Shown: positions 34,829 to 63,546 of the stretch, piece after piece
How positions within the stretch are numbered: position 1 is the stretch's first letter
Layout of the letters: every line of letters begins with the position of its first letter
NCBI RefSeq assembly: GCF_009914755.1
Contig: NC_060931.1
Strand: one strand, 5' to 3'
Length of the DNA: 64,000 nucleotides
DNA from: the human T2T-CHM13v2.0 reference genome, Homo sapiens
Program-made: the position numbers and the translations under genes
Notes under the pieces: model-generated
Seen by the model: the letters and a program-made list of their open reading frames with translations, nothing else
What the model was told of the DNA's origin: nothing
Databases searched by the model: none

Positions 34829-35074
34829 AAGGAGAGTTACATGCTGATGACACAAAGGACCAAACCTAACGGATGTGAAAATGTGCAAGAACAAATTTTT
34901 CAGCAATGAATCCATTGAGTCATCCCACTTTCCTCAAGTTTTATAGCACAGATCAGGCTACACAGTGGCTTGGGGTGTCTGTTCTGTAGCCTGTGCTCCT
35001 TCTCTGCATAAGCACGTGGGCAGCTCTGCGGGCCTAGGACTTGTAAAAATCATCCCAGGAATCTAATTCTAGTC

Positions 35075-35690
35075 CAAAAGTGCTCAAACTTCTCGGCCTC
35101 AGGACCCCTCTATACTCTTTAAAGTTACTGAGGACCCCAAAGAGCTTCTGTTAATGTGGGTTAAATCTTGATATTTATGGTATTAGAAAGTAAAATAGAA
35201 AAATCTAAAATATTTATTAATTCTTTCAACATAATAGTAATAAACCTATTATGTGTTAGTATGAATAACATATTTTTGTGAAAAATAACACTGTTTTCCA
35301 AATAAAAAAGTGATGAGAATATTGGCATTGTTTTTACATTTTTGTAAATCTCTTTAGTGTCTGGCTTAAAAGAAGACAGCTGGCTTCTCACATCTGCTCC
35401 TGTATTCAACCTGGGATATATTGTTTTATTTGAAGTATAGGAAGAAGTCTGGCCTCACACAGATGTGTAGTTGGAAAAAAGAGGAGTGTTCTTATAGCCT
35501 TTTCAGGTAAATGTGGGCTTTAAAATATATACTAGACCACAATTCAACAAGTGGTAGTTTCTTAAAGGTTAGTTGCAATGTCAATCACAGAAGGCAATTA
35601 CTGTAATAAAATCAGTTTTGACATCATGGACTCTCTAAAGGGATCTTGGGGATCCCCAAACATTGGTGGGCCACAGTTTGATGAAGAGCC
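35075..35690. mobile_element. Charlie1-type hAT DNA transposon relic
   Basis: ggcctcaggacccc...actgaggaccccaaagagctt...ggcattgttttacatttttgtaaatctcttta...gaagacagctgg. A related, oppositely oriented copy lies at about 54326-54770. Confidence 0.7.
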
Positions 35691-35941
35691 CAGCTTTTCA
35701 AGATGTTTATATTTTGACATCTCCAGAGTGGTGTTTGAGAGGAATTGTCCCACCACTTTTATCACCTTTGACTGCAGGAGGTAAATGATGCTGTCACCTG
35801 GGACTGCTGTACACCTATGGGGACTGGGCAGGCTATGATGAGGAGGCATTCTTCTGGACCTGACCCACCAAGCGCCTGCCCTGAGCACGACCTCAGAGCT
35901 CTTCCCAGTGGCTCTCACTAGGCGGTGGGGGGACAACAGGC

Positions 35942-36718
35942 TGAGTCTATATGAGTTTTAATTTTAGGGATCCCTCTGGGGTTGTTGAATGTTTTTAATT
36001 TCATCGAGGCTTTTTAATCATGGGACTTTTAAATAATTTATTCTGGAAGAAAATTTTTATAATGTTTAAAACAGGGTAGTGTCTTGTTTATATTTTAGTT
36101 GGGCTTAATCGTAGGAACAGTGTTGGTAGATTTAGGGTGATTACTTTCATTTTTAAGGTGAAATTGAGCTGTTTTTGTCTTTTTAGTAATTATATGGTGG
36201 TTTTTGGCTGTGAGTAAAATATTAATGTTTGTTTATTAGTCTAGGTGGGATGATATGTTAAAAAGATAAAAGACAATAATTTGGATAAGTATTTAGGGTT
36301 CTCTTGATTAAAGGTTTTTTTTTAATTAAATAGGTTTGAGGTGAGAAATGGAGAGTATATTTGCATTATGTCTGTGGGTCATCTATTGGCACTTAGTTTT
36401 TTAATTGGTAAGCGTTGAAATAGAGACTCTTGTTTGAGGAGTCTTAGCCCCTCACCTAAATTGGGTATTTTGTTGAGTATGGGATGTGAGATTATACTTG
36501 ACTTTTTTGATTTGTTTTTCTAATTAGGGGAGTTTGTCTTTTTTTGTATTTTTGTTTTTGAAGAAACTGGAGGGAAAAAGTTATAGGAGTTGATGAAAAA
36601 GTTGAAGGAGAGTGTTATTATTTTAGACCTTTGTAAGGGGAGAAAAAGTTGAAAGTAGTGAGACATAGTAAAAGTTGAACTTTTGATTTATAAATTTGAG
36701 AAGTTTTTAAAGAATGAC
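35942..36718 (-). mobile_element. ERV1 (gammaretrovirus-like, MER4-group) internal fragment, including a G-to-A hypermutated gag capsid pseudogene (about 35983-36420)
   Basis: Minus-strand translation YSPFLTSNLFN*K...QENPKYLSKLLSFIFLTYHPT*TNKQT...NILLTAKN...TVPTIKPN*NIN aligns with Gag p30 motifs (PFSSSDLYNWK, SEDP, HQPTWDDCQ, LLTGEE, PxWD). Strong C depletion on the + strand. Confidence 0.8.
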
Positions 36719-36996
36719 TGTTACATATAATGCTCTAGTTATTTAAAATATTATCTAAAACTTTAAAAACACAGACTTTCCTCCTCAAATCCCTAAACTC
36801 TCCTCCCTTACTCCCTAGCCACATTAAAAATTCCCCATTTCTACTTTTTATTAAAACAAATTTTTAAAATCTTGCCTTCCCCACCTTCTTACTTTAATCA
36901 GATCAAATAAACATTTCTCTATCTCCAAACACCTGTGTATCACTATTTAACATCAACTACACACCAAGTACACAAACCTAAATTTAGACTTCAACA
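36719..36996 (+). mobile_element. ERV1-type LTR 3' portion, G-depleted
   Basis: AATAAA at 36906-36911, U5-like tail and terminal ...cttcaaCA; only 1 G per 60 bp in 36781-36900. Confidence 0.6.
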
Positions 36997-38181
36997 CAAG
37001 CCTAGGGCCTGTGTCATCAGGAAACAGTTCTGCAGGTGCAATTCTGATATATATGGCCAATGAGGAGCCACCGACTGGGTCTCATTCTCTTCTCCGTACA
37101 GAGGAAATACCAAGACTCAAAGCTCAAAGTGACATTGAACAAGGAGGGTTGGAAGGAGGAAACACAATTTTAGCAGAGCCTATTATTTTCCTTCTTTGGC
37201 CTCGTACTGGGTATCACCCTCTTTGTTACCTCTCCTGGGCTTCTCCAGCTACCATCTTTGTGTCTATTTCATCAGGATGTGGCAGTCTCCCCACCCCACC
37301 CCCAGAGTGAGTAGCTGTCATTTTTGCCACCCAGAGCCACCTCAGTGTAGGAGCTTCTGGTGGAGTCATATCTGCCCACTAATCCCAGAGGTGGATTTGT
37401 GATTCAAGGCCAAGCCGAAGGACCCCGTGTCCCTGGCTAGGGTGGTTGGTTCAAGGGTGACCATGTGGTCAAGTCAGAGCCAGGGGAAGACAACAGACTT
37501 TTACCGTGAGTTCCAGGAGCCAGGCCTTTCACCCTCTTTCTGCTTGGCTCAATTAGGCAGGAAGTAGAGCCTGGGCTGCTGAAGGCTTCCCGCCACCCGA
37601 TAGAGCCTGAGAATGGAGCCTGGAGAAAGTAGAGCCTGGAGATGGGGAGAGAGAAGCTGAGTCCTGAGGCCTGATCTGAGCTTCTCGCGGAGCTGCCCTT
37701 CAGCCCGCCCCCGTCTCTGGATGTTCCAGTACTGCTGGCAGTTCATTGCTGCCTTGCCTTTGAGCTGGGTAAGCAGATGTTGGTGCTGCATTTAAGTCGG
37801 CAGCTGCTATCATCCCCACAAGAACTGGAACCCACCTGTCAGCTCCCTGCCACCTCTGCTGTCCTTCATTCCCACTCACCTTACTTGTCACCATTACTGA
37901 GGAAGCTTAGCTATTCAAGTTCAGGTTCATTTTAATTTTAATCCAATAATCCACACTACCCTTCTTTAAAATGGTGGTGTTAAATCAGAAAAAGGGGACC
38001 TCTAGTGTTTACTGAAATGGGTAGGAATGTAGCATCTTGTTTACCAGGCAGACATGGGAAATAACCCAGAAGCCACTGCTGGAATGCAGCCGTCATCCTT
38101 TACCTCCTGGCTCCACAACATATATATATGTAGACCTCTTACAGTTAAATGCATTTCAGTAAGATTAAGGCGCTCTGCTAA

Positions 38182-61583: not shown

Positions 61584-63191
61584 AATTTTAATAAGCCCTC
61601 CAGGTAACTCTGATACAGGCTGTAGGTTAAGAACCACCAGTCTAGGAATTCAGAAAAAGCACTTTTCTTCAAGCTGGAGTGGATAAAACTGCCAGCAGCA
61701 GCCAAATAAATCATTAAGCTGAGAAAAAAAATTATGCACACTTCTCTAAATCCTATCAGAAGCGCCTCCTTTTTTTTTTTTTTTCTTTTTTCATGTTTTG
61801 GATCATGAGAAGGGGTGAAAGTTGGATTCTAGGAGATAATCGGCCCAGAATTTTAACTAAGGTGTGGAATGAAGCAGTCTTCTCTCACTAGATTTTGCTT
61901 GCCCTAAAGATGCAACATCTGCCCTGTAAACACAAATGCAGCATGCATGGCAAGCCCTGGAGTGACGCCTCAAGTTGGAGACCATAGAATACTAGAGAGG
62001 CACACCCAAACCTTTGAATTCCCTCCAGCCCTGGGGATCTCCTGAAAGGGCATATTCTGATTGGGGACTGGGCTGGGGTTCAAGATTCTGCATCTCTCAG
62101 CAGCTCCCAGGGATGCTGGGCTGCTGATCCAGAGACCACGCTTTGACCAGTAAGACTAGGGAGCATGTCAAGGACTCCAGTACCTATCCACATTTTTTAA
62201 AGTAGGTAAATTGGCTTTTATATACCTATGCTTATAGTTGAATATTTTGTTTGAATATTGACTATTATGCTTGAATATTGATTATTTGAATATTACGCTT
62301 GAATATTGATGGGAAAAAAGCTGCCAACTTATAGGTGCTCAACAAGCATTTGTTAAGGTATAGTTTTGACCTTGGAGTTTCATTTCAGTCCCCGTTGTCC
62401 CCAGCTTGGCTATGTGAAGGGCACCCTGACCCTGGACTAAAGAGAGACAGCCCTGCCTTCTGATTCTTAATGGCATTTGGTCTCATGCACTTCCAAGGAT
62501 TGTGCCTGGTGACACCCCCCAAAAAAGTATTTGAATTCTCCAAAGACAGACTATAGACCACACCGTTTGTCCCCTAAGTTATTAACCAATCATGTGAATA
62601 TAAACCAACAAATTTCTGATACTTCTGATTCTCTCTTAATTGGGATGATATTTGAATAAATAACTTCCAGTGTACATTCAGTGAAATAGGTTCCTAAGTA
62701 TTGGGCTTACAATACACATTCACAGAATTCCCCGGGTCTTAAACTTTTATATTCCAATCAATCCTAACCTTTTTTTTTAAGCTACACTTTAATATCAGTT
62801 TATTGCTTCTTATTAAAATTAATAATAATAATAATAATAAAATTTACTCTTTGATCTTACTGTTACATAATATGCTCACTGAATAATAAGTAGAGGATAC
62901 AGATAAGCAACAAAGATAATAAAGGTTTTTGAAATCCACCAGAGATACTATTTCCTGCCAATGTCTACATCTATGTAAATATATATTTGTTGTATCTTTA
63001 AATTTTAAATTTTTCAGTATTTTATTGCCATATTCTTACAAAAGTCATTTAAATATTACATCTTCATTGTACACAAATTAGACAATAAAGATTTAAGAAA
63101 ACATTTGTTGAGCATCTGTACCTGACCTAGTAGAGATTTCCAAGGCCATATGCTGGTGCATATCTTCTCAGCATTTAAGATATCTAAAACC

Positions 63192-63546
<355 letters not shown>

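What the first reader, a model, noticed from the sequence alone, without database searches (positions are those of the whole stretch)
35942..36996. APOBEC3-type G-to-A hypermutated endogenous retrovirus fossil in the CHN2 intron
Seen: 35942-36718 is nearly C-free on + (1 C in 36181-36240, 2 C in 36601-36660), and 36719-36996 is nearly G-free (1 G each in 36781-36840 and 36841-36900), unlike the flanks. The minus strand of the first part translates to a gammaretroviral capsid whose departures from conserved motifs are mostly G-to-A. SDLxNWK reads SNLFN*K (GAC>AAC, TGG>TAA; about 36319-36339). HxPTWxD reads HPT*TN (TGG>TAG, GAT>AAT; 36235-36252). PxWD reads PN*N (TGG GAT>TAA AAT; 36086-36121). 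LLTxEE reads LLTAKN. Established: APOBEC3 deaminases edit the retroviral minus-strand cDNA, which gives sense-strand G-to-A changes and Trp-to-stop codons. Inference: this copy was massively edited during one replication round before germline integration. The inferred edits fall in GG, GA and apparently GC contexts, suggesting more than one deaminase or an ancestral one with relaxed specificity. Edited ERVs are a known class; whether this locus is catalogued is unknown to me.
Basis: partly seen in the sequence, partly recalled or inferred. Interest (0 to 1): 0.8.

Follow-up and report, generated by a model that had tools for sequence, protein, structure and literature searches.

The report
Heavily deaminase-edited retrovirus fragment, rearranged
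A 1-kb scrap of an ancient retrovirus in a CHN2 intron had roughly five in six of its G bases turned into A by a host DNA-editing defence before it settled in the genome; this kind of fossil is known, but this one is unusually extreme and rearranged.

Summary
35942-36718 has 52 C in 777 bases and 36719-36996 has 11 G in 278, the lowest values in the 64-kb window.

The stretch 35942-36998 comes from a gammaretrovirus-like ERV and has three pieces:
- An antisense gag piece, covering the region upstream of capsid and the N-terminal half of capsid.
- An antisense 150-nt internal piece.
- The last ~280 nt of the LTR, in the opposite (sense) orientation, ending at the family's own ...ACA terminus.

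On the viral sense strand, unedited relatives elsewhere in the genome have G where this copy has A. For gag against the closest copy the counts are G>A 98, A>G 10, C>T 20, T>C 30. For the LTR they are G>A 24-41 against A>G 2-5. Copy-to-copy controls are mostly symmetric. CpG sites contribute almost nothing.

All four contexts are edited: GG 37/42, GA 23/26, GC 12/14, GT 11/12. The unique flanks show no ERV homology, and editing stops where ERV homology stops.

Best reading: cytidine deamination of minus-strand cDNA, APOBEC3-type, before insertion. The class is known, so novelty is low. The extreme density, the lack of context preference and the head-to-head structure are the points of interest.

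The parts
35942..36560 (-). Piece (a): gag fragment, covering the region upstream of capsid plus the N-terminal half of capsid (Gag_p30-type). It is cut off near the FLERL-like motif and riddled with stops. About 85% of ancestral G now read A.
   Evidence: Translations and motif coordinates. Protein match to genomic gag copies: L015 E 8.8e-6. L015 and L010 carry Pfam Gag_p30 (65.2 and 34.6 bits). Alignment z-scores against shuffles: 46.9 (L012), 27.5 (L015), 17.9 (L010), 13.9 (L020). Spectrum. Left border alignments.
36563..36715 (-). Piece (b): 150-nt segment of an abundant, AT-rich internal ERV1 sequence, probably the matrix/p12 region, also G-to-A on the viral sense strand.
   Evidence: 30 of the 39 non-self matches fall here. 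Alignment z 25.4 against L007. Sense orientation follows from an MLVIN_C hit on L003 (27.2 bits, below the 29.2 cut-off) and from leader collinearity of L062/L007 with L012. G>A 10-16 against A>G 0-2 in 5 of 5 siblings. No sibling in hand carries (a) and (b) side by side.
36716..36727 (.). Junction where the editing polarity flips. About 12 bases of unclear origin lie between the last clear internal homology and the first clear LTR homology.
   Evidence: Alignments. The last clear C>T site on + is near 36694 and the first clear G>A site on + is near 36739.
36728..36998 (+). Piece (c): 3' ~270-280 nt of the LTR (part of U3, R, U5) in sense orientation, ending at the family's ...ACA terminus. 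About 80-90% of ancestral G now read A.
   Evidence: 9 of the 39 non-self matches fall here. z 41.2 (L006), 39.2 (L055) and 17.5 (the LTR of provirus L026, which lies upstream of and in the same orientation as its gag). In the terminus alignment all 9 siblings diverge from one another just after ...ACA. Spectrum.
36906..36911 (+). AATAAA polyadenylation-type signal of the LTR, conserved in most siblings. It fixes the LTR's sense strand as +.
   Evidence: Sequence. Alignment rows.
35583..35941 (.). Left flank: unique DNA of ordinary composition with no ERV homology.
   Evidence: only query bases 1-93, window 35500-35592, hit a common short repeat; 0 hits to 23 ERV-type loci; z -0.7 and 0.6 against the continuation of gag in L015 and L010.
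36999..37450 (.). Right flank: unique DNA of ordinary composition, starting right after the LTR terminus.
   Evidence: only the locus itself matched, 1 candidate; 0 hits; z 0.2 against the sequence after the L026 LTR.

Best explanation
35942-36998 is a 1,057-bp rearranged remnant of one old gammaretrovirus-like (class I/ERV1) element. A host single-strand-DNA cytidine deaminase of the AID/APOBEC family, most likely APOBEC3-type, deaminated its minus-strand cDNA almost to saturation during reverse transcription. That left roughly 150 G-to-A changes on the viral sense strand, about 80-90% of all G, in every dinucleotide context. Shown: the composition; the ERV identity of all three pieces; the direction and size of the G-to-A excess; its presence in both pieces on their own sense strands; and the fact that editing stops where ERV homology stops. 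Inferred: the enzyme, the timing (before insertion), and how gag came to lie head-to-head with the LTR. Two routes fit the structure equally well. In the first, the growing minus strand switched template onto the 5' end of minus-strand DNA and ran off at the U5 end. This would explain both the inversion and the exact LTR terminus. The product was then joined to the chromosome at that end. In the second, a normally integrated, edited provirus in + orientation later suffered an inversion, with breaks in gag and in U3 of the 3' LTR, plus a deletion of the rest. The fragment has no open frame and no sign of present function.
For: Composition extremes. Gag identity. LTR identity, orientation and terminus. 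Spectra on the sense strand, sibling to window: gag against L012, G>A 98, A>G 10, C>T 20, T>C 30, transversions 51 (binomial G>A against A>G, p = 3e-19). Against L015, L010 and L020, G>A 83-99 and A>G 12-16. LTR against 6 siblings, G>A 24-41 and A>G 2-5. Piece (b) against 5 siblings, G>A 10-16 and A>G 0-2. Sibling-to-sibling controls are near symmetric in gag (for example 25/32, 30/24, 33/32, 46/41, 40/46) and in 10 LTR pairs that do not involve L004. Only 2 of the 98 edited G against L012 follow a C. Plain blastn finds no gag homology at all, while merging G with A gives 75% identity over 610 columns to L012. Flanks: unique, with no ERV homology. Non-G>A divergence of the LTR piece from siblings is 18-24%, inside the sibling-sibling range of 17-31%, so the editing is an extra layer on an insertion as old as the family. 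The class is documented: positive-strand G-to-A bias and hypermutated copies in human ERVs (10.1101/707190, passages) and 'ultra-edited' ERVs, 44 of them in human (PMC4866542, section 8).
Against: No direct Gag_p30 hit on the window's own frames. The second gag piece alone finds nothing significant in the genome (best E 0.48). The closest gag sibling, L012, is not a parent: other mismatches are 111 of 209, so G>A is 47% of mismatches, not a majority. The GG/GA preference expected of human APOBEC3G and 3F is absent; GC and GT are edited as heavily in gag. No sibling shows pieces (a) and (b) adjacent, so their natural contiguity is inferred. The LTR family (L004/L006 type) is tied to the gag family only through one provirus, L026, whose LTR is a distant relative (66-69% identity). 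No such LTR was found within 8.6 kb upstream of two internal-family copies. The C>T-left, G>A-right polarity is also what editing around a resected chromosome break would give. No orthologues were available to date the insertion or to show that the edits are shared.
Confidence: 0.85

Rival explanations
1. In-place editing. An already inserted, already rearranged ERV remnant was deaminated in the germline on single-stranded DNA exposed by 5'-3' resection on both sides of a chromosome break at about 36718. This would be a kataegis-like cluster.
For: The polarity is exactly what resection predicts: C>T on + to the left of about 36718 and G>A on + to the right. The flip sits at a junction of two unrelated pieces, as a repaired break might.
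Against: Editing stops within about 10 bases of where ERV homology stops, on both sides: left about 35942-35960, right 36998. The flanks have ordinary C and G content and no ERV homology. Resection tracts have no reason to respect those borders. In both pieces the change is G>A on the viral sense strand, a further 1-in-4 coincidence under this model. Conversion of 80-90% of G in all contexts is far denser than the break-associated clusters I recall from the literature (recalled, no call).
Confidence: 0.05
2. The editing happened on cDNA before insertion, but the enzyme was not an APOBEC3 with the known GG or GA preference. Candidates are AID or APOBEC1-type deaminases, an ancestral APOBEC3 of relaxed specificity, several enzymes acting together, or several trans-complemented replication rounds that each added edits.
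For: All four +1 contexts are edited. In gag against L012: GG 37/42, GA 23/26, GC 12/14, GT 11/12. In the LTR, GA is 7/8 to 11/12 and GT is 2/6 to 6/7, varying by sibling. The context was required to agree between sibling and window. Published human ERV footprints are mainly GG or GA (PMC4866542 section 7; 10.1101/707190).
Against: At 85% conversion any preference is largely masked by saturation. A weak GA over GT ranking survives in the LTR and in piece (b). Contexts are read from relatives that differ by 20-40%, so they are noisy. No second genomic copy shares the edits (nothing closer than 82% over 150 bases), which argues against further replication of the edited genome.
Confidence: 0.2
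3. There was no enzyme editing. The skew would be the native composition of the repeat family, or ordinary decay (CpG loss, AT drift).
For: The internal family is AT-rich (67-70% A+T in L002, L003 and L007).
Against: Siblings have normal G: 0.21-0.24 in gag and 0.13-0.20 in the LTR, with no G/C skew. G>A exceeds A>G 6- to 18-fold, while sibling pairs are symmetric. CpG sites account for 2 of 98 events. The skew flips strand with the orientation of the ERV piece.
Confidence: 0.01

Closest known systems
APOBEC-hyperedited ('ultra-edited') endogenous retroviruses (Knisbacher and Levanon 2016, PMC4866542; Ito et al. preprint 10.1101/707190)
   Same: Clustered G-to-A on the positive strand of an LTR element relative to unedited relatives, confined to the element, with far more than 25 G>A events. 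ERV1 is the family with the most edited sites in that survey.
   Different: It is denser than the densest case quoted there. That case has 392 G>A in 4,304 aligned bases, about 9 per 100. This one has about 150 in 1,057 bases, about 14 per 100, or 80-90% of all G. It shows no GG or GA preference. It is so edited that plain blastn no longer finds the gag relatives. It is rearranged head-to-head. The 'majority of mismatches' criterion is not met, because only old, diverged relatives are available (47% against L012).
Hypermutated HERV-K(HML-2) and chimpanzee or mouse gammaretroviral proviruses attributed to APOBEC3G or mouse APOBEC3 (recalled; Jern et al. 2007, PMC2041998, seen only in the listing)
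   Same: Germline proviruses carrying G-to-A hypermutation and Trp-to-stop codons, interpreted as editing in the replication cycle that preceded integration.
   Different: Those are young, near full-length proviruses with a clear enzyme-specific context. This one is a tens-of-millions-of-years-old 1-kb fragment with no context signature.
Break-associated strand-coordinated APOBEC clusters (kataegis)
   Same: The switch from C>T to G>A along one strand at a single point.
   Different: The borders coincide with the ERV borders, the density is near saturation, and the change is sense-strand G>A in both pieces. See rival 1.

Membership tests
APOBEC-hyperedited ERV | Excess of G>A over A>G and over C>T on the element's positive strand, measured against unedited relatives | tested here: met
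   Gag: 98 against 10 and 20 (L012), and 83-99 against 12-16 and 39-52 (L015, L010, L020). LTR: 24-41 against 2-5 and 9-18. Piece (b): 10-16 against 0-2 and 4-6.
APOBEC-hyperedited ERV | The family itself is not G-poor, and the excess is not due to CpG decay | tested here: met
   (G fractions; symmetric sibling pairs). (CpG-context G: 2 of 98 edits against L012a).
APOBEC-hyperedited ERV | 'Ultra-edited' as defined in PMC4866542 section 8: at least 25 G>A, forming the majority of mismatches to a tentative unedited parent | tested here: inconclusive
   The count criterion is met (98 against L012a). The majority criterion is not met with the nearest copy (98 of 209 mismatches, 47%), but that copy is a diverged relative, not a parent.
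APOBEC-hyperedited ERV | Dinucleotide preference of a known enzyme (GG for APOBEC3G; GA for APOBEC3F, D and H) | tested here: not met
   GG 37/42, GA 23/26, GC 12/14, GT 11/12 in gag. Only a weak deficit of GT in the LTR and in piece (b). Saturation may hide a preference.
APOBEC-hyperedited ERV | Editing confined to the retroelement (made on cDNA, not on the chromosome) | tested here: met
Gammaretrovirus-like (class I) ERV gag, Pfam Gag_p30 | Direct match of the translated sequence to PF02093 | tested here: not met
   0 of 6 frames, stops read as X. Searching a back-corrected sequence was not done (referred).
Gammaretrovirus-like (class I) ERV gag, Pfam Gag_p30 | Homology to copies that do match PF02093 above the curated cut-off | tested here: met
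   (L015, E 8.8e-6, 43% over 56 residues; 3 non-self hits at E<0.001 among 69 matches). (L015 65.2 bits, L010 34.6 bits, cut-off 27.4; L012 none). (z 27.5 and 17.9).
Retroviral LTR | Repeat family with a polyadenylation signal and a conserved ...CA terminus after which copies diverge | tested here: met
   (9 siblings plus the window). The 5' half of the LTR, its TG start and any target-site duplication are absent here.
Break-associated APOBEC cluster (kataegis) | Cluster position set by the break, independent of repeat borders and of repeat orientation | tested here: not met
   Both borders coincide with the ERV borders and both pieces are G>A on the viral sense strand.

The most novel reading that the evidence does not exclude
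The fragment is a fossil of an aberrant reverse-transcription product rather than of a provirus. A minus strand edited to near saturation by a deaminase activity without the GG/GA signature switched template onto the 5' end of minus-strand DNA and ran off at the U5 end. The dead-end product was then joined to germline DNA. As a corollary, copies edited this heavily escape ordinary homology searches (plain blastn found none of the gag relatives), so a hidden population of saturated ERV fossils may exist that only reduced-alphabet searches reveal.
Probability: 0.25. Interest if true: 0.55.

Novelty: new member of a known kind. Interest (0 to 1): 0.3.

Why it matters
Edited ERVs are direct fossils of host deaminases hitting retroviruses, and this locus adds one more. 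Its value lies in how extreme it is. About 80-90% of G are converted in all four contexts, more edits per base than the record case quoted in the main survey. That shows how far the process can go. It also shows that such copies drop below the reach of standard similarity searches and of divergence-based dating. The head-to-head gag/LTR join ending at an exact U5 terminus may preserve an abnormal reverse-transcription or integration product. None of this bears on CHN2 function as far as the sequence shows.

Tried and rejected
Direct Pfam scan of the window's frames with X at stops: no gag family.

Genome search with the 97-residue second gag piece: nothing significant, best E 0.48. One of those weak hits, L012, then proved by DNA alignment to be the closest relative.

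Genome search with L012:1100-1800 was swamped by a young repeat inserted in L012. The repeat-free part, 1100-1660, found only itself, so no closer gag sibling was obtained.

I first suspected that the 150-nt piece was LINE-1, because its siblings are long, A-rich and collinear over 3 kb. I rejected this on the MLVIN_C hit and on leader collinearity with the L012/L026 provirus.

I first suspected that the LTR and internal homologies overlap over 36598-36760, which would have meant a polarity flip inside one continuous element. I rejected this because the two sibling families share no homology, and reduced-alphabet blastn over-extends in purine-rich DNA. Background AT-rich alignments of 57-61% identity reach E 1e-36, so reduced-alphabet E-values were not used. 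Shuffle z-scores were used instead.

Search for more pieces of the same provirus in the 64 kb: only Alu-like and low-complexity hits.

LTR of this type upstream of two internal-family copies: none within 8.6 kb.

Supplementary tables of PMC4866542, to see whether the locus is catalogued: not readable.

Earlier findings of this scan: not open.

No repeat-family name could be assigned because no Dfam or RepeatMasker library is on hand.

Full report
**Observation.** The window's + strand is nearly free of C from 35942 to 36718 (52 C of 777, 6.7%). It is nearly free of G from 36719 to 36996 (11 G of 278, 4.0%). The flanks are ordinary: C is 18.9% in 35000-35941 and G is 24.7% in 36997-38000. Among all 300-base windows of the 64 kb, the 12 poorest in C and the 3 poorest in G lie in this stretch, and the skew profile shows the same picture. 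The minus-strand translations contain the capsid-like strings with stop codons at the coordinates given.

**What the pieces are.** The window's own assembly could be searched. The edited 1,055 bases gave 39 non-self matches among the 40 scored of 144 candidates.
- 30 matches fell on bases 36561-36715 and 9 on 36734-36996. None fell on 35942-36560.
- The 30 belong to a long, AT-rich repeat whose copies are collinear with each other over the whole 3.1 kb fetched.
- One copy, L003, has a sub-threshold match to the MLV integrase C-terminal domain (27.2 bits against a cut-off of 29.2, E 3e-6; the other 11 frames scanned gave nothing).
- The upstream part of these copies is collinear with the leader of a gag-bearing provirus, L012/L026.

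These copies are therefore an internal ERV1 sequence, and its sense strand is the window's minus strand.

The 9 LTR-type matches, of which I fetched all 9 (L004, L006, L055-L061), belong to a repeat of about 535 bp. It has AATAAA on the + strand and a conserved ...ACA end, after which all nine copies diverge from one another. A distant relative of this LTR sits 1.8 kb upstream of gag in provirus L026, in the same orientation as gag.

The window's LTR piece ends at that same terminus, at 36998.

**The gag part.**
- Plain blastn of 35700-36800 against 15 gag-type loci gave no hit at E<1e-8.
- The 63-residue translation of 36396-36208, with X at stops, found 68 other places in the genome. Three have E<0.001, the best being L015 at E 8.8e-6 with 43% identity.
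- The 97-residue second piece found nothing significant.
- L015 and L010 match Pfam Gag_p30 above the curated cut-off (65.2 and 34.6 bits against 27.4). L012 does not, in any of 3 frames.
- The window's own six frames give no gag family.
- With G and A merged, the window aligns to L012 over 610 columns at 75% identity.
- Reduced-alphabet E-values proved inflated. AT-rich background reaches 57-61% identity and E 1e-36. I therefore used alignments with symmetric transition scoring and 100 shuffles each. The z-scores were 46.9 (L012), 27.5 (L015), 17.9 (L010) and 13.9 (L020) for gag, and 41.2, 39.2 and 17.5 for the LTR.
- Gag homology runs to about 35945-35960, near the FLERL-like motif in the middle of capsid.

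**The flanks.**
- The right flank, 36988-37450, matches only itself in the genome.
- In the left flank only 35500-35592 hits a common short repeat.
- Neither flank hits any of 23 ERV-type loci.
- Neither flank aligns to what follows in the siblings (z -0.7, 0.6, 0.2).

**Substitution spectrum.** Counts are sibling to window on the viral sense strand.

| Piece and sibling | G>A | A>G | C>T | T>C | Transversions |
|---|---|---|---|---|---|
| gag vs L012 (509 columns) | 98 | 10 | 20 | 30 | 51 |
| gag vs L015 | 94 | 16 | 52 | 34 | 99 |
| gag vs L010 | 99 | 13 | 50 | 26 | 124 |
| gag vs L020 | 83 | 12 | 39 | 33 | 113 |
| LTR vs six siblings | 24-41 | 2-5 | 9-18 | – | – |
| piece (b) vs five siblings | 10-16 | 0-2 | – | – | – |

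- Sibling G kept as G: 15 against L012, so 98 of 113 (87%) read A.
- G fraction is 0.066-0.076 in the window's gag against 0.21-0.24 in the siblings, and 0.036 against 0.13-0.20 in the LTR.
- Controls: the six gag sibling pairs give G>A/A>G of 25/32, 30/24, 33/32, 45/20, 46/41 and 40/46. The ten LTR pairs without L004 give 8-23 against 6-18. The five pairs with L004 give 21-31 against 5-9, so L004 is itself mildly edited.
- Only 2 of the 98 edited G against L012 follow a C.

The family is not G-poor, and G>A dominates once CpG sites are set aside. The Gag_p30 test is negative directly but positive through relatives.

**Context and density.** The +1 base was required to agree between sibling and window.
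- In gag against L012, edited over edited-plus-kept is GG 37/42, GA 23/26, GC 12/14 and GT 11/12.
- In the LTR and in piece (b), GA stays near 90% while GT falls to roughly 50-70%.
- Editing is even along the element, at 70-96% per 100 bases, with a mild dip at 36400-36499 (18/25 against L012).
- In total there are roughly 150 G>A changes in 1,057 bases.
- The survey of edited LTR elements quotes 392 G>A in 4,304 aligned bases as its record and 44 'ultra-edited' elements in human (PMC4866542, section 8 read in full).
- That survey reports GG or GA as the usual primate contexts (passages), as does the Ito et al. preprint (passages).

**Age.** Leaving G>A columns out, the LTR piece differs from its siblings by 18-24%. 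Siblings differ from each other by 17-31% (computed). The copy is therefore as old as the family. At the 2.2e-9 per site per year used in 10.1101/707190 this means tens of millions of years. This is an inference, because no orthologues could be examined.

**Structure.** On the + strand the order is:
- unique DNA;
- antisense gag, from mid-capsid back to the region upstream of capsid (35942 to about 36560);
- the antisense 150-nt internal piece (about 36563-36715);
- about 12 bases of unclear origin;
- the sense LTR 3' part (about 36728-36998);
- unique DNA.

In the only provirus in hand that has both an LTR and gag, L026, the two lie in the same orientation. The window's arrangement is therefore inverted.

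Pieces (a) and (b) are adjacent in no sibling. L012, L015 and L010 lack (b) (z 0.3, -0.1, 0.6), and the L007-type copies lack (a) (z -0.4, -0.7). In L007-type copies (b) lies about 740 bases after the shared leader. That is where matrix/p12 would be, so natural contiguity in a complete ancestor is plausible but not shown.

**Mechanism.** In all three pieces the change is G>A on the piece's own sense strand, and the editing ends where ERV homology ends. That is what deamination of minus-strand cDNA before insertion predicts. It follows from established knowledge of APOBEC3 action, as summarised in the papers.

Editing in place around a resected break would give the same left/right polarity. It would not explain why both tract ends coincide with the ERV ends, nor why the changes are sense-strand in both pieces. 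I give it 5%.

How gag came to face the LTR is open. Read along the + strand, the fragment has minus-strand polarity through gag and then plus-strand polarity through U3-R-U5, up to the exact U5 end. One explanation is that a growing minus strand switched onto the 5' end of minus-strand DNA and ran off its end. An inversion with breaks in gag and in the 3' LTR of an integrated + provirus, followed by deletion of the rest, fits equally well. Both are inferences.

The enzyme is also inferred. The lack of a GG/GA signature may reflect saturation, several enzymes, or an older deaminase with relaxed preference.

**Comparison and verdict.** This is a member of the known class of deaminase-hyperedited ERVs. 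It is not catalogued as far as I could check, because the supplementary tables that might list it could not be read. It stands out by density, by the absence of a context signature, by being invisible to plain similarity search, and by its inverted structure. Interest is modest.

**Limits.** No repeat library was on hand, so the family is unnamed. No other primate genomes were available. The back-corrected HMM search was not done. The closest gag relative is a diverged sibling, so the counts mix its own changes with the window's.

Noticed in passing
L004 (G000:C8:55314533-55317775), LTR at about 1217-1752: This solo-type LTR copy of the same family is itself mildly G-to-A biased. Against five other copies it shows G>A 21-31 and A>G 5-9, with G fraction 0.14 against 0.19-0.22. 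It may be a second, lighter edited copy.
   Followed up: partly
L015 (G000:C23:36868752-36871925) gag: Against L010 it shows G>A 45 and A>G 20, possibly a light editing footprint. It also keeps a Gag_p30 match of 65 bits with several stops.
   Followed up: no
window 36364-36456: This is a patch where sense-strand G survived. 10 of the 15 G kept against L012 lie here, including a run at 36448-36450, and the 36400-36499 bin is 18/25 edited against 15/18 to 22/23 in the other five bins. It could be a stretch of minus-strand DNA that was shielded, but this was not tested.
   Followed up: partly
L012 1664-2750 (G000:C2, about 116.9006-116.9017 Mb): The closest gag relative is interrupted in capsid by about 1.1 kb of inserted DNA. 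The first 137 bases of the insert match a very abundant young repeat at 92-95% identity (1,667 candidates). Gag resumes at about 2753.
   Followed up: partly
window 35500-35592: A short repeat with at least 39 other copies in the genome at 77-98% identity sits 350 bases left of the insert. Its family was not identified.
   Followed up: no
window 62500-63100: This AT-rich stretch has only 7-15 G per 100 bases, the next-lowest G content in the window. It lies next to an Alu-like repeat at 63173-63499. No convincing ERV homology was seen in the filtered reduced-alphabet search.
   Followed up: partly
method: blastn on three-letter (purine-merged) sequence gives strongly inflated E-values in AT-rich DNA. 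Unrelated alignments at 57-61% identity reached E 1e-36. Shuffle controls are needed for this kind of search.
   Followed up: yes
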